A DNA stretch of 64,000 nucleotides, taken from the NCBI GenBank assembly GCA_041675505.1, contig JBAYTR010000010.1, positions 67,895 through 131,894 on the forward strand, given 5' to 3'. Shown one piece after another: positions 2,352 to 14,180 of this stretch; positions within the stretch are counted from its first letter, which is position 1; each line of letters opens with the position of its first letter. The stretch comes from Bacteroidia bacterium (lineage in GTDB: Bacteria; Bacteroidota; Bacteroidia; UKL13-3). Both the position numbers and the translations under genes were made by a program. The notes beneath the pieces are model-generated. The model was given only the letters and a program-made list of their open reading frames with translations, ran no database searches and was not told where the DNA came from.

Positions 2352-5294
2352 TTAGTCTTCGCAGTGGTAGTTGCGAGGCGGGCGCGAGCGACCTTCGCGG
2401 GCGGGTTCTCCGGCTGCCTGTGCTTCGAGCATTTTTTTAAACAGCCAGTTGCGTAACTCTATGTTTTGTTGGTAGAGTTTCAGGTCTTCTTCTGCATCAA
2501 AATACCGTTTGCCGTCTATCCAGGTTTTTTCTACTTTAGCGTAAATACTCAGGGGGTCGTTGCTCCACAATACCACGTCAGCATCTTTACCTACTTTAAT
2601 ACTCCCTACGCGGTTATCTACGTGCAGCATTTTAGCCGGGTTGAGTGTAACCATTTTCCAGGCTTCTTCTCTGCTCATGTTGCAGTAGCGGATACTCTTG
2701 GCCGCCTCCTGATTAAGTCTGCGACCCATTTCGGCATCATCGCTGTTAATGGCTGTGGTTACTCCGGCTTTGGTAAGTAAGCACGCATTCTGCGGAATGG
2801 CATCAATTACTTCGTATTTGTAGGCCCACCAATCACTAAAGGTGCTGGCCGAGGCTCCGTGTTTTTTCATTTCATCGGCTACTTTGTAACCCTCCAGAAT
2901 GTGTGTGAACGTATTGACCTTAAACCCGAGTGAATCGGCCACGCGCATCAGCATGGAAATTTCAGATTGCACATACGAGTGGCAGGTGATGAATCTTTTT
3001 TTGTTGAGAATTTCATTCAGTGTTTCCATTTCCAAATCGGTACGGAAAGGTGTTTTGTTTTTAACAGCGGCTGATTTGTCGAGCGCATATTGTTTGGCGC
3101 GTGTAAAATCATTCACCATCACCTGCTCTACGCCCATGCGGGTTTGCGGGAACCTGAATGTAGGATCGTTCCAACCTCCGCGTTTTACATTTTCACCTAA
3201 TGCGAATTTGATAAAGCCATCAGCTCCTTCAAATTTCATTTGCTCGGGCAAGGCACCCCAACGCAGTTTAATGAGTTGAGATTGTCCGCCAATGGGGTTG
3301 CAGGAACCGTGCAGCAATTGCGCACCCGTTACCCCACCGGCCAGCTGACGGTAGATGTTGATGTCTTCATTGTCGACCACATCACCTATGCGCACTTCGG
3401 CTGTGTTGCTGTGGGTACATTCATTCACTCCGTTATCAATGGCAATGTGTGAATGTTCGTCAATTATACCGTTGGCCAAATGTTTATTGGTTCCGTCAAG
3501 AGTGGTGTAATTGCTCTTGCCGAAAATGCCGGCAGCATTCAGCTTTTTACCTACCGCAGCAATTTTTCCGTCTTTGATGGCCACATCGGTTTGTTCCAGA
3601 ATACCCTCCACTTCATTGGTCCACACGGTTGTGTTTTGTATGAGTACGTTGTCGTAATTCGGAAGGGTAGTTCTGCCGTAATCACCAAACGGGTAGCTCA
3701 CGCGGAATACGGAATCAACTTTATTTTCTTTGACTTTCTTTTTATCCTCGGGCGCAGCTTTTTTTGTTCCGTTCACTTGTTGCGCCAGGTAAACCAAAGC
3801 AATTTCTTTGGCTTCGGGCAAGGCGGCATCGGTAAGTTCTTTTATCCATCCGGTAACCGACAAGGCGTTTTTCGAACACTGGCAAATGGCAGCAAAACCT
3901 TTGCTTCCCTGCACATATTCCAAAGTGCCTTTGCAACTGTCGTTGCTCAGTTTCAGTTCTACGCTGTTGCCTTTAACCGTAAAAGTTCCGTTGTTACTAA
4001 GGGCAAAAGTTCCCTCCAGCATTTTTTTGTTTTTACCGGGAAGAACGTGCTGCTCACCTTTAATCCAGTGCTCGGTAATTTCAAAATCTTCTTCACCCAA
4101 AGGTGTGGTGGCGATAAAAAAGTTGGCCAGTTTTCCTGCGGCAATGCTGCCGGTTATATCTTCTATTTTGAGTAGGCGTGCCGGTTCAGTACACAAGGCT
4201 TTCACCAGGTCGGTTGCATTCAGGCCGCCTGATTGTACCTTGGCTAAGTTTTTCCAGAAAGTTTCTTTATCCAATCCTTCGGCAGTGAAGGCAAAGGGCA
4301 CGTTGTTTTGTTTGAGTATGGAGGCGTTTTTAGGTGCCATGTACCAATGCAGCAAATCAGCGGTGTTGATGAACTCGGCCATCTCAGCACTTTGTATGTT
4401 GTAGGTTTTCGGAAGTTGTAAAGGCACAATAAATGAGGCTCCGGTTTGTTTCAGTTCAGCGGCCCATTGGTACTCCGTACCGTTGCCTTTTACAATCCAG
4501 TTTTTGTTAAACTCTTTGGCAATTTTTAATGCACGCAAAGCTGATTGTTTGCTTTCCACTTCAAATATCACGGGTAAATTCTGCAGCTGATTAAAACGCT
4601 CCAGGGTGTAGTTGTACTCCAGTTTGTTTCCGCCCGCAGCATACCATTGCGCATCTAAATGTGTTTGACGCAACAAGGCGATTGAACCCATCAATGAAGA
4701 AGGATATTGATTGGGTGAGGTACCCTTATCAAAAGAATAATGCAAGGCCGATTGTTTGCGCAAAACAAGTTCGTTATCGGGTTTATTACCGGGTAACACC
4801 AACGTTGATGCACCGCGCACAATGCCGTCACGCACAAAGGAAGATACACAGCCGTAACCCATTTCGAGCAGTTGTTTCCATTGCTTATCATCGGGTTCAA
4901 AATGTTCAAAGGCATCTACATCGCTGCGGATAGCTTCGTTCCAACCCAGTGCGGCTTTTTTCGGAGCATTGTTTTTATCTGTTTTTTGGTTGATGCCGTA
5001 GGTGCTGAACGGGTCAATAAAAGAAGGATAAATCCACTGGCCTTTTACATCGGTTACTACGGCATCCGTTGGAATAACAACTCCTTTGCCCGCTGCCACA
5101 ATTTTACCGCCACGGATAACCAGTGTATAATCCAATCCTGTAGTTTGTTCATTGAGCTGTATGTTGGCATGGGTAAACGCAAAGCACGTAAGCTTAGGAT
5201 CTTTAACAGTTAACTGTGGAAAGGAGGGTTGAGCAAAAACGAAGACAGGGAAAAGTGCGGTAAACACTACCGCCAGCAGTTTATTTTTTATCAT
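2352..5294 (-). CDS. Large secreted metal-dependent amidohydrolase-family protein
   Basis: 992-aa ORF. The likely true start is MIKNKLLAVVFTALFPVFVFAQ (signal peptide) at 5294. Motifs: IIDEHSHIAIDNG (HxH metal site) and C-terminal VGKDADVVLW, typical of the amidohydrolase superfamily. Confidence 0.7.
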   Translation of the reverse strand: MIKNKLLAVVFTALFPVFVFAQPSFPQLTVKDPKLTCFAFTHANIQLNEQTTGLDYTLVIRGGKIVAAGKGVVIPTDAVVTDVKGQWIYPSFIDPFSTYGINQKTDKNNAPKKAALGWNEAIRSDVDAFEHFEPDDKQWKQLLEMGYGCVSSFVRDGIVRGASTLVLPGNKPDNELVLRKQSALHYSFDKGTSPNQYPSSLMGSIALLRQTHLDAQWYAAGGNKLEYNYTLERFNQLQNLPVIFEVESKQSALRALKIAKEFNKNWIVKGNGTEYQWAAELKQTGASFIVPLQLPKTYNIQSAEMAEFINTADLLHWYMAPKNASILKQNNVPFAFTAEGLDKETFWKNLAKVQSGGLNATDLVKALCTEPARLLKIEDITGSIAAGKLANFFIATTPLGEEDFEITEHWIKGEQHVLPGKNKKMLEGTFALSNNGTFTVKGNSVELKLSNDSCKGTLEYVQGSKGFAAICQCSKNALSVTGWIKELTDAALPEAKEIALVYLAQQVNGTKKAAPEDKKKVKENKVDSVFRVSYPFGDYGRTTLPNYDNVLIQNTTVWTNEVEGILEQTDVAIKDGKIAAVGKKLNAAGIFGKSNYTTLDGTNKHLANGIIDEHSHIAIDNGVNECTHSNTAEVRIGDVVDNEDINIYRQLAGGVTGAQLLHGSCNPIGGQSQLIKLRWGALPEQMKFEGADGFIKFALGENVKRGGWNDPTFRFPQTRMGVEQVMVNDFTRAKQYALDKSAAVKNKTPFRTDLEMETLNEILNKKRFITCHSYVQSEISMLMRVADSLGFKVNTFTHILEGYKVADEMKKHGASASTFSDWWAYKYEVIDAIPQNACLLTKAGVTTAINSDDAEMGRRLNQEAAKSIRYCNMSREEAWKMVTLNPAKMLHVDNRVGSIKVGKDADVVLWSNDPLSIYAKVEKTWIDGKRYFDAEEDLKLYQQNIELRNWLFKKMLEAQAAGEPAREGRSRPPRNYHCED

Positions 5295-6651
5295 GTTGTT
5301 CTCTCCACAATTCATTGAATGATTTGGCACTTAGTTCAGGAAACACCCTGCGCTCTCCCCAGCTGCTTTTAAACAACGATTTAATGAGGAAACCTTTAAT
5401 GCTAGGGGCGCGGTTCATTTTTTTGCGATCGAGCATGGCTTTTTTCCAGGCTATCCACATCAGCTTTTCGCTGGTTTTACCATGACCCTCATCTACAAAA
5501 TCTTTTCTGTTGGCCAGCAGTGTTTGGTGTATGGGAATGTTTACCGGGCACACATCGGTACAGGCCCCGCAAAGGGTGGAGGCGTGGCTCAGGTGCTTGA
5601 ATTCTTTGGCACCAAATTGCAACGGACTCACTACTGAGCCGATGGGTCCGATGTTGGTGCTTTCATATCCATGTCCGCCAATGGTTTTAAAAATGGGGCA
5701 CACATTGGAGCAGGCACCGCAACGAATGCATTTTAGCGCTGCCCGTTGTTCCTGTTTTTCGAGTACGTTGGTGCGGCCGTTGTCCAGCAGTATCACATAC
5801 ATTTCAGCAGGTCCGTCTCCTTCGTCCTGAAAACGCGGACCCATAAAAAGAGAGTTGTAAGTCGTGAGGTTTTGTCCGGTACCGTAAGTGGCCAGCATGG
5901 GCAGCAACACTTCCAGATCACCCATTCCCGGAATTATTTTTTCAATACCCGCCAGTACAATGTGTACCGCAGGAGCCGAAGTTCCTACACGCACATTGCC
6001 CTCGTTTTCGGTAATTACCACCGCACCGGTTTCGGCCACCAGAAAGTTGGCCCCTGTAATGCTTACCTGGGCATTGCGTAAATGTGTTTTTATATTGCCG
6101 CAGCCTTTTGCGGTAAGTTGCTCGGCTGTGGTCTCGTGGCTGTTGGGCAGATTAAATAAAGCACCTACCTCTTCCAATGATTTGTGCATGGCCGGTGTTA
6201 CCGGATGAAAAGGAGCTTCGTTGGCCAGTTGAACAATGTATTCGCCCAAATCAGTTTCGTGAACGGCTACCTGTTTTTGTGTAAAGTGTTTTTGCAAACC
6301 AATTTCTTGTGCCGTGGTTGATTTGCTTATGACAATTTCACTGGCTGCATGTTGGGTAACAATGTTTTCAATTTCGCTGAGTGCGGCAACCGCATCGGGA
6401 GCCCAAAGAACCTTCCCGCCCCTTTTGGTAAAGGCGTTTTCAAACTCCAGCAAAAACTTATCTAGGCTTTCAATGGCTCTCCACCGGGAAAAAGAGGCGC
6501 GCTCTTTGGCCAGTTCCAGCTGTTCAAACTGTGTGATTCCCTTGTGGTGTTGTACCCGATAATTGGCCAAAGCAGCATCTATCTTCTGGCGCCTTTCCGC
6601 ATCAAAAGCTGTTTTTTCAGCTAACCGAAGAAAACTTTCCAGATCTGCCAT
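5281..6651 (-). CDS. LutB/LldF-like LUD-domain iron-sulfur protein
   Basis: 456 aa. Two ferredoxin-type cluster motifs (CIRCGACSNVCP and CGACTDVCP) follow a LUD/DUF162-like N-terminal half. No lutA or lutC gene is adjacent. Confidence 0.65.
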   Translation of the reverse strand: MADLESFLRLAEKTAFDAERRQKIDAALANYRVQHHKGITQFEQLELAKERASFSRWRAIESLDKFLLEFENAFTKRGGKVLWAPDAVAALSEIENIVTQHAASEIVISKSTTAQEIGLQKHFTQKQVAVHETDLGEYIVQLANEAPFHPVTPAMHKSLEEVGALFNLPNSHETTAEQLTAKGCGNIKTHLRNAQVSITGANFLVAETGAVVITENEGNVRVGTSAPAVHIVLAGIEKIIPGMGDLEVLLPMLATYGTGQNLTTYNSLFMGPRFQDEGDGPAEMYVILLDNGRTNVLEKQEQRAALKCIRCGACSNVCPIFKTIGGHGYESTNIGPIGSVVSPLQFGAKEFKHLSHASTLCGACTDVCPVNIPIHQTLLANRKDFVDEGHGKTSEKLMWIAWKKAMLDRKKMNRAPSIKGFLIKSLFKSSWGERRVFPELSAKSFNELWREQHDKK

Positions 6652-10865: not shown

Positions 10866-12704
10866 ATGTGTGGAATTGTAGCTTACATAGGTAAGCAGGA
10901 AGCTTACCCTATTCTTATTAAAGGACTTAAACGCCTGGAGTACCGCGGTTATGATAGTGCCGGAGTAGCACTGCTTAATGACGGGATAACGGTATATAAA
11001 AAAGCAGGGAAGGTTTCTGACCTGGAGCAGTCCGTAGGTGGTCAGGACACTACCTCTCACGTGGGCATAGGCCACACACGCTGGGCCACACACGGAGAGC
11101 CTAACGACCGCAACGCACATCCGCACCTTTCTCAGGATGGTGACTTGGCCATTATTCACAACGGTATAATCGAGAATTATGCGCCCTTAAAAGAAGAACT
11201 CATTAAGCGTGGCCACACGTTTAAAAGTGATACCGATACGGAAGTACTGGTGCACCTGATAGAAGACGTAAAGAAAAAAATGGAGGTTTCTTTACAAGAA
11301 GCCGTTCGTATTGCGCTCTCTGAAGTAGTGGGTGCATACGCCATTGTGGTGTTGTCTAAAAACGACAACAACATGCTCATCGGGGCACGCAAAGGCAGCC
11401 CCATGGTGGTGGGTATTGGCAAAGACGGGGAATACTTTATCGCCTCCGATGCTTCACCCATTATTGAGTACACTAAAAACGTTTATTACTTAGACGACAA
11501 CGAAATCGTTTACATCGAAAACGGGGAAATGACCGTAAAAACGATTGACAACGTGGTGCGCACACCATACATCCAGGAACTGGAAATGAACTTGGAGGCT
11601 TTGGAAAAAGGCGGATACGAGCACTTTATGCTCAAAGAAATTTACGAACAACCCCGTTCCATCATTGACAACTTTCGCGGACGCATTCGTTTAAACAACG
11701 CACAAATTGTGATGGCCGGAGTTGACCAGTTTGAACACAAGTTTAAAAACCTGCCCCGCATTCTTATTGTGGGTTGCGGCACCTCATGGCATGCCGGCCT
11801 GGTGGGTGAATACCTTTTTGAAGAGTTTGCCCGCATACCTGTGGAAGTGGAATACGCCTCAGAGTTTCGTTACCGCAATCCGGTGGTAAATGAAAATGAT
11901 TTTGTAATTGCTATTTCACAATCAGGCGAAACCGCAGATACGTTAGCGGCCATTCAAATGGCCAAAGAAAAAGGAGCTACTATTTTCGGGGTATGTAATG
12001 TGGTGGGCTCATCTATTCCAAGGGCTACACATGCGGGAGCGTACACACATGCCGGTCCGGAGATTGGTGTGGCTTCTACCAAAGCCTTTACGGCTCAGGT
12101 AACCGTTTTAACACTGATGGCTTTAAGCATAGCACAAAAACGCGGTACCATTACCCAAAGCCGAATGCGCGATGTACTTACTGAGTTGGAATCCATTCCA
12201 TCTAAGATTGAAAAAGTTCTGCAACTGAATGACTACATCAAAACCATAGCTGAGCAATACAAGGATGCGCGCAACTTCCTTTACCTCGGTCGCGGATACA
12301 ATTTCCCGGTGGCTTTGGAAGGTGCGTTAAAACTGAAAGAAATCTCTTACATACATGCTGAGGGTTATCCTGCTGCTGAAATGAAGCACGGCCCTATTGC
12401 GCTGATAGATGAAGAAATGCCGGTGGTTGTAGTAGCTACCAAAGACAGCATTTATGAAAAAGTAATCAGCAATATACAGGAAGTAAAAGCGCGCAAAGGA
12501 AAAGTAATTGCCGTGGTAACAGAGGGTGATGATAAGGTAAAAGGCATGGCCGATTACGTAATTGAAATACCTGAAGTGGAAGAATCGCTGGCCCCGCTGG
12601 TTACTACCATTCCGTTGCAACTGCTTTCATACCACATTGCCGTAATGCGTGGCTGTAATGTTGATCAACCCCGTAACCTGGCCAAGTCGGTAACGGTGGA
12701 ATAA
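10866..12704 (+). CDS. glmS: Glutamine--fructose-6-phosphate aminotransferase
   Basis: 612 aa. MCGIVAYIG (N-terminal nucleophile Cys), two SIS domains, C-terminal KSVTVE. Confidence 0.95.
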   Translation: MCGIVAYIGKQEAYPILIKGLKRLEYRGYDSAGVALLNDGITVYKKAGKVSDLEQSVGGQDTTSHVGIGHTRWATHGEPNDRNAHPHLSQDGDLAIIHNGIIENYAPLKEELIKRGHTFKSDTDTEVLVHLIEDVKKKMEVSLQEAVRIALSEVVGAYAIVVLSKNDNNMLIGARKGSPMVVGIGKDGEYFIASDASPIIEYTKNVYYLDDNEIVYIENGEMTVKTIDNVVRTPYIQELEMNLEALEKGGYEHFMLKEIYEQPRSIIDNFRGRIRLNNAQIVMAGVDQFEHKFKNLPRILIVGCGTSWHAGLVGEYLFEEFARIPVEVEYASEFRYRNPVVNENDFVIAISQSGETADTLAAIQMAKEKGATIFGVCNVVGSSIPRATHAGAYTHAGPEIGVASTKAFTAQVTVLTLMALSIAQKRGTITQSRMRDVLTELESIPSKIEKVLQLNDYIKTIAEQYKDARNFLYLGRGYNFPVALEGALKLKEISYIHAEGYPAAEMKHGPIALIDEEMPVVVVATKDSIYEKVISNIQEVKARKGKVIAVVTEGDDKVKGMADYVIEIPEVEESLAPLVTTIPLQLLSYHIAVMRGCNVDQPRNLAKSVTVE

Positions 12705-12739
12705 GGTTGGTACCGTTGTGTTTTAAACGGACTACGAAA

Positions 12740-12764
12740 CAGCAGCTACAGTTGTTTAACCAAC
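12740..12764. repeat. Direct repeat, left copy (CAGCAGCTACAGTTGTTTAACCAAC)
   Basis: 23/25 identical to 13199..13223. On the minus strand it reads ..LVKQL*, a duplicate of the yjbR 3' end. Confidence 0.8.
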
Positions 12765-12766
12765 TT

Positions 12767-12906
12767 TTATGTGAATACTCTGTAAACGTCTTTCCTGTGA
12801 GTAATCACAATCAGCCTTATGGTATTGGATGAAATTTTTCAAATATAGTCTTGTCCTTAACATTATTTAAAGACCTTTCAAATGATTTATCAAATTCGAC
12901 AATCAT
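12767..12906 (-). pseudogene. RelE/ParE-family toxin remnant (internal deletion plus frameshift)
   Basis: ATG 12906 overlaps the upstream stop (TAATG). Frame 1 reads MIVEFDKSFERSLNNVKDKTIFEKFHPIP*. A shifted frame then reads IRLIVITHRKDVYRVFT*. These look like the N- and C-terminal ends of a ~90-aa RelE/ParE toxin with the middle missing. Total span is only 140 nt. Confidence 0.55.
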
Positions 12907-13100
12907 TAAGATTTTAATTTTTTGAGGATGGTGGATTTAGGAACAGTTTTTCCGGTCTTAACTTTATCCATTAAGGTTCCCATCATCAAATCCTCAAATT
13001 GCTCATCCTTTACACTCAGAACATCCGCCCCAAGTTTTTTGGCAAGTTCAGACAGGATTTTATTGCTCTGTTTGTCGGCCCTTATAAGAATTGCACTCAT
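12906..13100 (-). CDS. Small putative antitoxin (64 aa)
   Basis: Intact 64-aa ORF (MSAILIRADKQSNKILSELAKKLGADVLSV...) directly upstream of the toxin remnant and translationally coupled to it. The function is inferred from position only. Confidence 0.45.
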   Translation of the reverse strand: MSAILIRADKQSNKILSELAKKLGADVLSVKDEQFEDLMMGTLMDKVKTGKTVPKSTILKKLKS

Positions 13101-13198
13101 GATGTAAAGATATTAAAAATGATTATCAGCGAAAGACTTCAAACATTGTTAGCTAACGGTAGAGGAGAAAAACTCATCCATACTTTTTATTTCCGCTC

Positions 13199-13223
13199 CA
13201 GCAGCTAAGGTTGTTTAACCAAC
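13199..13223. repeat. Direct repeat, right copy (CAGCAGCTAAGGTTGTTTAACCAAC)
   Basis: Overlaps the last codons and the stop (13205-13207) of the MmcQ/YjbR gene. 23/25 identical to 12740..12764. Confidence 0.8.
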
Positions 13224-13546
13224 GCAGCCAGTTGAGCAGGTGCCACTTCGCAATAAGCTGAGGTGAGTGCAGCTGTAAACAGACGCTTGCTTACCTTACT
13301 TAGTTCCACCATGGTCCACCCTTGTTTGCCCCACTTATTGTTTACAGGATACACGATGCTTTTGTCAGCCAGTGAAAACAGGTCCTGATTTATTTCAGAT
13401 AATTTAAGGCAGGCCCTGTTGTTTTTTTCGTCACAGGTGGCAAATATTTTTCCCTTTACCCGAAAGGAAATTTTTTCAAAGTGGGCCGCTTCTGTAGCCT
13501 CAGGAAAAGAAAGTGCAATAGTTCGGAAGGCTGCTAAACTCACCAC
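13205..13546 (-). CDS. MmcQ/YjbR-family DNA-binding protein
   Basis: 113 aa. LSFPEATEAAHFEKISFRVKGKIFA...WTMVEL matches the YjbR/CyaY-like fold family as I recall it. Confidence 0.65.
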   Translation of the reverse strand: MVSLAAFRTIALSFPEATEAAHFEKISFRVKGKIFATCDEKNNRACLKLSEINQDLFSLADKSIVYPVNNKWGKQGWTMVELSKVSKRLFTAALTSAYCEVAPAQLAALVKQP

Positions 13547-13568
13547 GTGAGCAATGGTTCAGTGTGCA

Positions 13569-14180
13569 TTAAAAATTACCGTACGAGAGGAAGAACGAAC
13601 CGTTGGTAACTGTTTTCGACTGGGTACCTGTTTCGTTGTACAACTTACATGTGAAGGTGCCTTTTACATCCACATAGGTATCGCCAAAGATGCTGAACTG
13701 CTGTGTGCTGGTAATGTTAAACGTTGCCCCGCTTTGTGTACCGTTAATGCTGCTCCACACCTGTCCGGTGGCATCTACATGCAAAATTTCTACACCATCG
13801 GTAGTAGGGGTGGAATACATGTAATTTCCGGGAGCAAAATAGGCTACAAAATCAGCATCATCAGGGTAGGCACCCTGAAAGCTCATTTCACCCTTGTATA
13901 TGCTCACACCTCCTACGGTATTGTCAGAAAAAATATTGGAATAATAGTAAGCGGTAGAAAACTCAGGCAACGGGCGGGTTTCTTTACTGGAGCCGGCTGC
14001 TTGTTCAAAACCGTTTTTTCCGTCAGTGTAGGTGAGGGAACTGCCATCTACGGTAAGGGCAACATTATATCGGTTGGGAGTAGGAGTTGGGGTGGGTGTA
14101 ACGTTGTTATCATCATCGTCTTTTTTACAACCGGTAAACGCCAAAGCCAAAAGAGCTGCAGCAAAGAATAAATTTTTCAT
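13569..14180 (-). CDS. Hypothetical lipoprotein
   Basis: 203 aa with MKNLFFAAALLALAFTGC lipobox. No family recognised. Confidence 0.5.
   Translation of the reverse strand: MKNLFFAAALLALAFTGCKKDDDDNNVTPTPTPTPNRYNVALTVDGSSLTYTDGKNGFEQAAGSSKETRPLPEFSTAYYYSNIFSDNTVGGVSIYKGEMSFQGAYPDDADFVAYFAPGNYMYSTPTTDGVEILHVDATGQVWSSINGTQSGATFNITSTQQFSIFGDTYVDVKGTFTCKLYNETGTQSKTVTNGSFFLSYGNF

What the first reader, a model, noticed from the sequence alone, without database searches (positions are those of the whole stretch)
12740..13223. A 459-bp toxin-antitoxin cassette flanked by 25-bp direct repeats that duplicate the yjbR 3' end; the toxin is internally deleted
CAGCAGCTACAGTTGTTTAACCAAC (12740-12764) and CAGCAGCTAAGGTTGTTTAACCAAC (13199-13223) are 23/25 identical. 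The right copy encodes the real end of the MmcQ/YjbR gene (..LVKQP*). The left copy would encode ..LVKQL*. That is the pattern left by an element inserting into a gene's 3' end and regenerating it (attL/attR-like). Between the repeats sit only two things. One is an intact 64-aa ORF. The other, coupled to it by TAATG, is a RelE/ParE-type toxin reduced to its ends: MIVEFDKSFERSLNNVKDKTIFEK.. and, in another frame, ..IRLIVITHRKDVYRVFT*. The whole remnant is 140 nt, where roughly 270-300 nt would be expected. The result is a minimal mobile TA cassette caught after toxin inactivation, with the antitoxin retained.
Basis: seen in the sequence. Interest (0 to 1): 0.55.

Follow-up and report, generated by a model that had tools for sequence, protein, structure and literature searches.

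The report
Decayed toxin-antitoxin cassette beside yjbR
A small toxin-antitoxin gene pair sits between glmS and yjbR in place of a sulfotransferase gene, with its toxin destroyed by a 130-base deletion and its antitoxin intact; this is a well-documented but ordinary case of selfish-gene decay, and the 25-base flanking repeat is real but probably not a dedicated integration site.

Summary
The 25-nt direct repeat (12740-12764 and 13199-13223, 23/25) is real and non-random. It brackets an intact 64-aa ORF and a 140-nt toxin remnant.

A relative (L001) has the same locus with an intact 89-aa RelE/ParE toxin, so the window lost 130 nt. Toxin loss recurs: L002 has a frameshift and L019-22 a nonsense codon.

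The att-site reading is weakened by four results:
- The ancestral state is a 211-aa sulfotransferase gene between yjbR and glmS. Its 5' remnant survives at 12705-12739.
- The 21 nt following the yjbR-side copy are native yjbR flank, not foreign DNA.
- The same cassette in six other genomic contexts lacks these ends.
- No recombinase is nearby.

The best reading is a decayed TA allele in a hypervariable slot that holds a sulfotransferase, the TA pair, nothing, or a DUF6855 island. It was probably installed by illegitimate or homology-assisted recombination that duplicated yjbR's end.

The antitoxin family matches no Pfam, NCBIfam or PDB entry. Interest is low to moderate.

The parts
10866..12704 (+). 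glmS (612 aa), the conserved left border of the variable slot
   Evidence: ORF. GATase/SIS Pfam domains on orthologues. It is 94-96.5% identical to L007 and L030.
12705..12739 (-). Remnant of the 5' end of a lost sulfotransferase gene (TTTCGTAGTCCGTTTAAAACACAACGGTACCAACC in antitoxin orientation)
   Evidence: Significantly similar to the first codons of the Sulfotransfer_2 gene of L030, L013 and L032 (at most 3 of 1000 shuffles). The same remnant is present in the empty allele L007.
12740..12764 (-). Distal 25-nt copy of the yjbR 3' end (would read ..LVKQL*). It is non-functional and decaying.
   Evidence: In L001 and L002 this copy has lost 4 + 14 nt.
12767..12840 (-). 3' fragment of the RelE/ParE toxin gene (..IRLIVITHRKDVYRVFT*), out of frame with the 5' fragment
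   Evidence: tblastn to the L001 toxin, residues 67-88.
12841..12906 (-). 5' fragment of the toxin gene (MIVEFDKSFERSLNNVKDKTIF). The 130-nt deletion junction is at 12840/12841.
   Evidence: The intact 89-aa orthologue is translated.
12906..13100 (-). Intact 64-aa antitoxin gene of an unnamed family. Its stop overlaps the toxin start (TAATG).
   Evidence: 62 homologues at 60-100% identity. A RelE/ParE toxin gene or its remnant lies immediately downstream in every context examined. dN/dS is 0.15 against L001.
13101..13158 (-). Cassette upstream region. It holds a conserved promoter-like stretch (..TATCTTTACATC before the ATG) and a 10-nt perfect palindrome GTTAGCTAAC at 13148-13157.
   Evidence: Homologous to the upstream regions of cassettes in other contexts (L047, L005, L003, L027). 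It is 91% identical to L001 over the last 35 nt. The palindrome reads GTTTGCAAAC in L001, a compensatory change.
13159..13177 (-). About 19 nt of unassigned sequence containing the left junction between native DNA and cassette
   Evidence: No significant similarity to the sulfotransferase 3' end or to other cassettes.
13178..13198 (-). Native yjbR 3' flank (GAGCGGAAATAAAAAGTATGG), colinear with relatives that have no TA cassette
   Evidence: Alignment A4. The first 30 nt after the yjbR stop compared with L030, L013, L008 and L032 gave 0 of 500 shuffles reaching the observed score.
13199..13223 (-). Proximal 25-nt copy, which is the functional yjbR 3' end (..LVKQP*, stop at 13205-13207) plus CTGCTG
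13205..13546 (-). yjbR/mmcQ (113 aa), the conserved right border of the slot
   Evidence: PF04237, 45.6 bits. Orthologues.

Best explanation
What it is. This is one allele of a hypervariable slot between the convergent core genes glmS and yjbR in a group of related uncultured Bacteroidia.

The ancestral state. The slot originally held a 211-aa sulfotransferase gene. In this allele the sulfotransferase body is gone. Only about 35 nt of its 5' end remain next to glmS.

What replaced it. In its place lies a compact type II toxin-antitoxin cassette of about 0.5 kb. It consists of a short promoter/operator region, a 64-aa antitoxin of an unnamed family, and a translationally coupled 89-aa RelE/ParE-superfamily toxin.

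The repeat. The event that installed the cassette also left a second, non-functional 25-nt copy of the yjbR 3' end on the glmS side of the cassette. The yjbR-side copy is followed by native yjbR flank. No recombinase or shared end sequence is associated with the cassette. I therefore infer that the duplication came from illegitimate or homology-assisted recombination between alleles. One possibility is one-sided homologous recombination. Another is Campbell-type integration of a circularised fragment carrying about 25 nt of yjbR. I do not think it came from a dedicated att-site recombinase.

Decay. The toxin gene later lost 130 nt (residues about 23-66, plus a frameshift), which removes any toxicity. 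The antitoxin gene and its palindromic upstream site have stayed intact, leaving an orphan antitoxin.

Shown: the anatomy, homologies, allelic states, toxin deletion and recurrent toxin decay.

Inferred: the recombination mechanism, the order of events, RNase activity of the ancestral toxin, and any current role of the antitoxin (such as anti-addiction).
For: Repeat and ORFs.

Same locus with an intact 89-aa toxin (L001) and with a 1-nt frameshift (L002).

Toxin family: PF05016 at 30.9-35.6 bits against a cutoff of 23, full length 1-89; the closest solved relative is M. jannaschii RelE3, 3BPQ_B, E = 8e-9.

Antitoxin family: the gene pair is conserved across 62 homologues and at least 8 lineages.

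Alleles of the slot:
- Sulfotransferase in L030/31 (YjbR 96% aa) and in L013 and L032-39.
- Empty in L007.
- DUF6855 island in L008 and L040/41.

Clade structure: W, L007 and L030 form a tight clade carrying three different alleles.

Sulfotransferase 5' remnant next to glmS.

Native flank after the proximal copy.

No 25-nt ends at other cassettes.

Neighbours are housekeeping genes and no recombinase is present.

The allele appears in three independent assemblies, so it is not an assembly artefact.

A second presence/absence polymorphism of the cassette exists, with no long duplication: L019 versus L042.
Against: The order of events is unresolved. The empty allele L007 shares the repeat-to-sulfotransferase-remnant junction with the TA allele, which fits either of two histories. 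In one, the cassette inserted into an empty allele. In the other, the empty allele arose by deletion between the repeats. L007's single copy (..CAACGTTAATTGCAG) differs from both window copies at 5-6 positions, so neither derivation looks recent.

The hypothetical donor allele (yjbR, native flank, TA, with the sulfotransferase still present) was not found.

Two other cassettes (L005 and L047) are framed by co-varying 15-18-nt inverted repeats at fixed positions. The yjbR end TTGGTTAAACAAC loosely resembles that 3' arm. A site-directed mechanism is therefore not excluded.

The antitoxin's fold and function are not established. The AF2 model has pLDDT 74, and the Foldseek hits to RelB, FitA and DinJ are non-significant.
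Confidence: 0.6

Rival explanations
1. A minimal mobile TA element (a circle of about 590 bp before the deletion) carries an attP that mimics the last 25 nt of yjbR. A trans-acting site-specific recombinase integrated it into the yjbR 3' end. The repeats are attL and attR, and the element regenerates the gene end.
For: Direct repeats flank the insert. There is an empty site with one copy in a 95%-identical relative. The cassette occurs in many contexts and in presence/absence pairs. Cassettes L005 and L047 carry co-varying inverted repeats at -63..-46 and +2..+19 that could be recombination sites. The distal repeat starts at exactly the position of that 3' arm and loosely resembles it.
Against: The 21 nt after the proximal copy are native yjbR flank, so the apparent element end is not foreign. 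No other cassette carries the 25-nt or even the 11-nt core. There is no recombinase in the insert or among the neighbours. The other documented insertion (L019 versus L042) has no long duplication. The pre-insertion state of the slot was a sulfotransferase gene. The family is absent from the plasmid and viral collections searched.
Confidence: 0.15
2. The TA allele arose directly from the sulfotransferase allele in one complex replacement, for example template switching during repair that copied 25 nt from the nearby yjbR end. The 'empty' L007 allele would then be a secondary product of deletion between the two 25-nt repeats, not the pre-insertion site.
For: The TA allele retains both edges of the sulfotransferase region: the native yjbR-side spacer and the 5' remnant. 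The empty allele retains only the remnant. A deletion between the repeats would remove exactly the spacer plus the cassette. Neutral divergence of the spacer between the window and L001 (74-76% identity) is as deep as that of the flanks, so the TA allele is old.
Against: L007's surviving copy differs at 5-6 of 12 positions around the stop codon from both window copies, although the genomes are about 95% identical. This model needs an unusual templated duplication. No intermediate was observed.
Confidence: 0.2
3. The repeat is a chance match or an assembly artefact, and the short toxin is a sequencing or assembly error.
For: The window comes from a metagenome-assembled genome. The 130-nt deletion is seen in only one assembly.
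Against: Chance expectation is 0 matches. The same architecture, including a (shortened) distal copy, appears in two independent Logan assemblies. The deletion junction lies in unique sequence.
Confidence: 0.02

Closest known systems
RelBE-type type II toxin-antitoxin systems (RelE/ParE superfamily, Pfam PF05016); the closest solved relative is M. jannaschii RelE3 (PDB 3BPQ)
   Same: An 89-aa toxin that matches PF05016 over its full length and matches RelE3 at E = 8e-9, including the C-terminal HRK..Y motif. A small upstream antitoxin gene overlaps the toxin start by 1-4 nt. There is a palindrome in the upstream region.
   Different: The antitoxin has no detectable sequence relative in Pfam, NCBIfam or the PDB. 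In the window the toxin is a non-functional 140-nt remnant.
Degraded TA loci and orphan antitoxins (reviewed in PMC7354431, section 4.2)
   Same: An intact antitoxin beside a toxin inactivated by deletion. Independent toxin inactivations occur in sister cassettes (L002 frameshift, L019-22 nonsense).
   Different: Nothing essential differs. Here the intact orthologue at the same locus lets the lesion be defined to the base.
Integrative islands and prophages that insert into the 3' end of a gene and regenerate it (attL/attR identity segments; own knowledge)
   Same: A direct repeat of a gene's 3' end flanks an insert, the gene end is regenerated, and an unoccupied allele exists.
   Different: There is no integrase. 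The insert is 0.46-0.59 kb. The DNA inside the proximal repeat is native flank. The same cassette elsewhere has no such repeat.
Homology-facilitated illegitimate recombination or Campbell-type integration through short homology (own knowledge: de Vries and Wackernagel 2002; a RecA minimal processing segment of about 23-27 bp)
   Same: One side of the insert is colinear with the homologous chromosome, the other is a novel joint, and there is a short duplication of recipient sequence. This occurs in a locus whose alleles are shuffled among close relatives.
   Different: The mechanism is inferred only. No donor allele was found.
TA gene cassettes of chromosomal integrons and pdif (XerC/D) TA modules of Acinetobacter plasmids (own knowledge)
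   Same: Promoter-bearing TA pairs that behave as very small mobile units. Two relatives (L005 and L047) are framed by inverted repeats.
   Different: No attC-like site fits here, because the 62 nt between the toxin stop and glmS are fully accounted for by the yjbR copy plus the sulfotransferase remnant. No IntI is present. The arms do not match GTTRRRY/RYYYAAC or dif consensus by eye. The window cassette has no significant inverted repeat.

Membership tests
Type II TA, RelE/ParE superfamily | The toxin matches PF05016 above the gathering score | tested here: met
   Intact orthologues L001, L003 and L027 score 30.9, 29.6 and 35.6 bits against a cutoff of 23, covering profile positions 1-89. 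The window remnant itself gives no hit.
Type II TA, RelE/ParE superfamily | A full-length toxin ORF is present in this window | tested here: not met
   130 nt are missing relative to the 270-nt gene and the two fragments are in different frames.
Type II TA, RelE/ParE superfamily | A small antitoxin gene lies immediately upstream, is translationally coupled, and is conserved as a pair | tested here: met
   TAATG or ATGA overlap in all loci. The pair is conserved in at least 8 lineages.
Type II TA, RelE/ParE superfamily | The antitoxin neutralises the toxin and autoregulates the operon | not testable with these tools
   There are only indirect hints. One is a 10-nt palindrome upstream with a compensatory change between the window and L001. 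The other is a three-helix AF2 model whose top Foldseek hits, all non-significant, are RelB, FitA and DinJ.
Site-specific integrative element (attL/attR) | Direct repeats flank the insert, and an unoccupied site has one copy | tested here: met
Site-specific integrative element (attL/attR) | The DNA immediately inside both repeats is element DNA, foreign to the locus | tested here: not met
   The 21 nt inside the proximal copy are native yjbR flank shared with TA-less relatives.
Site-specific integrative element (attL/attR) | A recombinase is encoded by or associated with the element | tested here: not met
   Only the antitoxin and the toxin remnant lie between the repeats. The neighbours within +/-4 kb in L001 are housekeeping genes. 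A trans-acting enzyme elsewhere in the genome cannot be excluded.
Site-specific integrative element (attL/attR) | The same att core is found at other insertions of the element | tested here: not met
   GGTTAAACAAC occurs essentially only at yjbR 3' ends among the 46 loci (one unrelated minus-strand match in L010) and at none of the cassettes in other contexts (flanks).
Integron gene cassette | An attC site downstream of the ORFs, and an IntI or attC array nearby | tested here: not met
   The 62 nt between the toxin stop and the glmS stop are the yjbR copy plus the sulfotransferase remnant. No integrase is among the neighbours. attC was judged by eye only.
Tn7-like insertion at attTn7 downstream of glmS | tnsABCD-like genes, Tn7 ends and a 5-bp duplication | tested here: not met
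   The insert is 0.46 kb and contains only TA genes. The duplication is 25 nt of yjbR, not of the glmS flank.

The most novel reading that the evidence does not exclude
The promoter-antitoxin-toxin unit of about 0.55 kb is a genuine autonomous-looking mobile cassette of Bacteroidota. It would be bounded by co-varying 15-18-nt inverted repeats: GTTAACGCCAATGG / CCACTGGCGTTAAC in L005, and GTTACCACCAATGG / CCACAGGTGGTAAC in L047. A trans-acting recombinase would move it. The yjbR stop region (TTGGTTAAACAAC) would have served as a pseudo-site, so that the 25-nt repeat is a true att-like scar.
Probability: 0.1. Interest if true: 0.65.

Novelty: new member of a known kind. Interest (0 to 1): 0.3.

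Why it matters
This gives a base-resolved example of the life cycle of a chromosomal toxin-antitoxin module. The steps are acquisition into a variable slot between core genes, long persistence, and repeated independent loss of the toxin while the antitoxin survives.

It also defines an unannotated antitoxin family partnered with RelE/ParE toxins in Bacteroidota.

If the inverted-repeat lead were confirmed, it would point to a new way in which minimal TA cassettes move. As it stands, the biology is expected.

Tried and rejected
- I thought the spacer upstream of the antitoxin was a remnant of the sulfotransferase 3' end (IISERLQ versus IIAEKFK). Shuffle tests gave p of about 0.1-0.7, so I dropped this. 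Only the first 30 nt or so are native flank.
- I thought long flanking direct repeats might be a family hallmark, because L019 has a 19-nt repeat and L023/L025 a 30-37-nt repeat. The L019 repeat pre-exists in the TA-less relative L042, where it flanks a structured element of about 230 nt. The L023/25 repeat is a GC-rich, REP-like sequence. Neither is made by cassette insertion.
- Integron attC and Tn7 readings were rejected on anatomy.
- Plasmid (tblastn) and viral-contig searches for the antitoxin found nothing.
- A PDB profile search and Foldseek for the antitoxin gave nothing significant.
- An Rfam scan of 12400-13700 found nothing.
- The sigma-70 promoter and terminator scan was at background, and is in any case not suited to Bacteroidota.
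- A weak second toxin-like tblastn hit at 5248-5469 lies inside a 456-aa iron-sulfur protein ORF and is spurious.
- One Python repeat search timed out.

Full report
**1. The observation**

Allowing up to 3 mismatches, they are the only matches in the 64-kb window, against 0 expected from shuffles.

The local map on the window + strand is as follows.

| Coordinates | Strand | Feature |
|---|---|---|
| 10866-12704 | + | glmS |
| 12740-12764 | | left repeat |
| 12767-12906 | - | toxin remnant |
| 12906-13100 | - | 64-aa ORF |
| 13199-13223 | | right repeat, containing the yjbR stop at 13205-13207 |
| 13205-13546 | - | yjbR |

YjbR matches PF04237.

**2. It is a RelE/ParE-type TA pair and the toxin is truly deleted**

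The 64-aa ORF has no Pfam or NCBIfam match. It does have 62 homologues of 62-90 aa (nearly all 64-65) at 60-100% identity in Bacteroidota metagenomes and MAGs.

In every context with enough sequence, the ORF is followed by a coupled 89-aa gene or by that gene's remnant. That 89-aa protein matches PF05016 over the whole profile at 30-36 bits, against a cutoff of 23. Its closest solved relative is M. jannaschii RelE3, 3BPQ_B, at E = 8e-9.

Locus L001 (Logan SRR34411020) is the same glmS / TA / yjbR locus with an intact toxin. Aligned with it, the window lacks exactly 130 nt, with the junction at 12840/12841. This removes roughly residues 23-66 and shifts the frame.

Toxin inactivation recurs in the family:
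- L002, also the same locus, has a 1-nt loss in an A-run. This could be a homopolymer sequencing error.
- L019-L022, a different locus seen in four assemblies, have a nonsense codon at position 8.

The antitoxin stays intact in all of these. Its dN/dS between the window and L001 is 0.15.

Orphan antitoxins derived from degraded TA pairs are well known (PMC7354431).

**3. The slot is polymorphic and its ancestral content is a sulfotransferase**

Relatives found through YjbR show four states.

| State | Loci |
|---|---|
| 211-aa Sulfotransfer_2 gene between yjbR and glmS | L030/31 (YjbR 96% aa identity); L013 and L032-39 (89%) |
| Empty junction of 42 nt with one repeat copy | L007 (yjbR 95% nt identity) |
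| TA allele | window, L001, L002 |
| DUF6855-containing island | L008, L040/41 |

The window, L007 and L030 form a tight clade yet carry three different alleles. Their identities are 93-95% for yjbR and 94-96.5% for glmS. L001 and L002 are more distant, at 85% for yjbR and 92% for glmS.

The 35 nt between glmS and the left repeat (12705-12739) are a remnant of the sulfotransferase 5' end (at most 3 of 1000 shuffles). The empty allele carries the same remnant. Both the TA and the empty alleles therefore descend from a sulfotransferase allele.

**4. What the repeat is**

The following is read in antitoxin orientation. The yjbR-side copy is followed by GAGCGGAAATAAAAAGTATGG. This is homologous to the native yjbR 3' flank of the TA-less relatives L030, L013, L032 and L008 (alignment A4; 0 of 500 shuffles). 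That copy therefore sits in its native context on both sides.

The glmS-side copy starts 2 nt after the toxin stop. It is followed directly by the sulfotransferase remnant, and L007 has the same junction.

The rest of the spacer is not significantly similar to the sulfotransferase 3' end. From CCGTTAGCTAACAATG onward it is homologous to the upstream regions of cassettes elsewhere.

The insert is therefore made of four parts:
- 21 nt of native flank;
- about 19 nt of unknown origin;
- a cassette running from about -58 through the toxin stop codon;
- a 25-nt duplicate of the yjbR end.

In L001 and L002 the duplicate has decayed to 12-16 nt. This is consistent with it being functionless.

**5. 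Test of the att-site idea**

- Cassettes of the same family in six other contexts (L003/4, L005/6, L019-22, L023-26, L027-29, L047) lack the 25-mer. Even the 11-nt core is absent from them and occurs essentially only at yjbR ends; the single exception is one minus-strand match in L010, a distant yjbR locus.
- No recombinase lies between the repeats or among the neighbours.
- A second presence/absence pair was found. L019 carries TA and L042, 99% identical in the flanking kinase, does not. It shows a 603-nt insertion replacing 21 nt, with no long duplication.
- The family was not found in the plasmid or viral collections.

I therefore favour illegitimate or homology-assisted recombination between alleles as the origin of the duplication. 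This is inferred, not shown.

The order of events remains open. The empty allele could have come first, or it could be a deletion between the repeats. L007's single copy differs from both window copies at 5-6 positions around the stop. In addition, the window and L001 spacers are as diverged (74-76% identity) as neutral sites of the flanks, so the alleles are old.

Synonymous divergence between the window and L001 is lower in the antitoxin (0.18) than in yjbR (0.44) or glmS (0.33). This is a weak hint that the cassette core has been exchanged more recently than the flanks. It rests on only 7 synonymous changes.

**6. A lead that keeps a site-directed mechanism alive**

In L005 and L047 the cassette is framed by 15-18-nt inverted repeats at the same relative positions, -63..-46 and +2..+19. 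The sequences differ between the two loci, which is covariation. Shuffle tests gave 1 of 1000 and 9 of 1000. L003 has degenerate versions of the same arms.

The window cassette has only the 5' motif, here the perfect palindrome GTTAGCTAAC. L001 has GTTTGCAAAC at that position, a compensatory change. The window's 3' arm position is occupied by the yjbR duplicate, which loosely resembles the arm.

With only three informative lineages this cannot be evaluated further. It is the basis of the novel case, to which I give a probability of 0.1.

**7. The antitoxin**

AlphaFold2 with 29 homologues gives three helices at mean pLDDT 74. Foldseek against the PDB gives no significant hit. The top non-significant hits include the ribbon-helix-helix antitoxins RelB, FitA and DinJ. 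The fold assignment stays open.

**8. Verdict**

The feature is a decayed RelE/ParE-type TA allele with an orphan antitoxin, sitting in a hypervariable intergenic slot. It is a new member of a known kind. The 25-nt repeat is a real scar of its installation, but the evidence argues against a simple attL/attR insertion into an empty glmS-yjbR junction.

Noticed in passing
L030:1816-2451; L013:1749-2384; L032:3366-4001: Close relatives carry a 211-aa Sulfotransfer_2 gene immediately after glmS, converging on yjbR. The window keeps only about 35 nt of its 5' end (12705-12739). The yjbR-glmS interval is a four-allele variable slot.
   Followed up: yes
L008:4343-8339; L040:1350-2282: In another lineage (yjbR about 90% nt identity; YjbR 88-90% aa), yjbR is followed by a DUF6855 gene and several small genes instead of glmS. 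These include glyoxalase-like, SRPBCC-like and DUF86/HepT-like genes, assigned by eye. The first 25 nt or so after the yjbR stop are still the native flank.
   Followed up: partly
L019:3195-3464 (also L020-L022); L002:2746-3014: There are independent toxin inactivations in sister cassettes with intact antitoxins. One is a nonsense codon at toxin position 8, seen in four assemblies. The other is a 1-nt loss in an A-run.
   Followed up: yes
L005:3938-3955 and 4466-4483; L047:154-168 and 682-696: 15-18-nt inverted repeats frame the whole TA cassette at identical relative positions but with different sequences (covariation). They could be terminal repeats, recombination half-sites or operators.
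   Followed up: partly
window 13148-13157: There is a perfect 10-nt palindrome GTTAGCTAAC about 50 nt upstream of the antitoxin ATG. L001 and L002 have GTTTGCAAAC at the same place, a compensatory double change. This suggests a conserved operator.
   Followed up: no
L023:2718-2747 and 3563-3592; L025:577-613 and 1422-1458: The same TA cassette is flanked by 30-37-nt perfect direct repeats that are GC-rich and REP-like, with GCGAAGC motifs nearby. Synteny between the two contigs breaks just past the second copy, after a further shared AAATA.
   Followed up: partly
L042:1860-2130 (and L019:3528-3722): A structured intergenic element of about 230 nt lies between the YegS-like kinase and SdpI genes. 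It has internal inverted repeats and is flanked by 19-30-nt direct repeats (GTTGCKTCTCCGACCAACGGC..). The more distant relative L045 lacks it entirely, with a 4-nt gap. The TA cassette of L019 inserted at its edge.
   Followed up: partly
L003:1896-2338; L027:5429-6117; L005:4782-6848: Cassettes of this family often sit near other TA pairs (HicAB, HigBA) or near an IS91-family transposase with a tyrosine recombinase. These look like TA or mobile-element hot spots.
   Followed up: no
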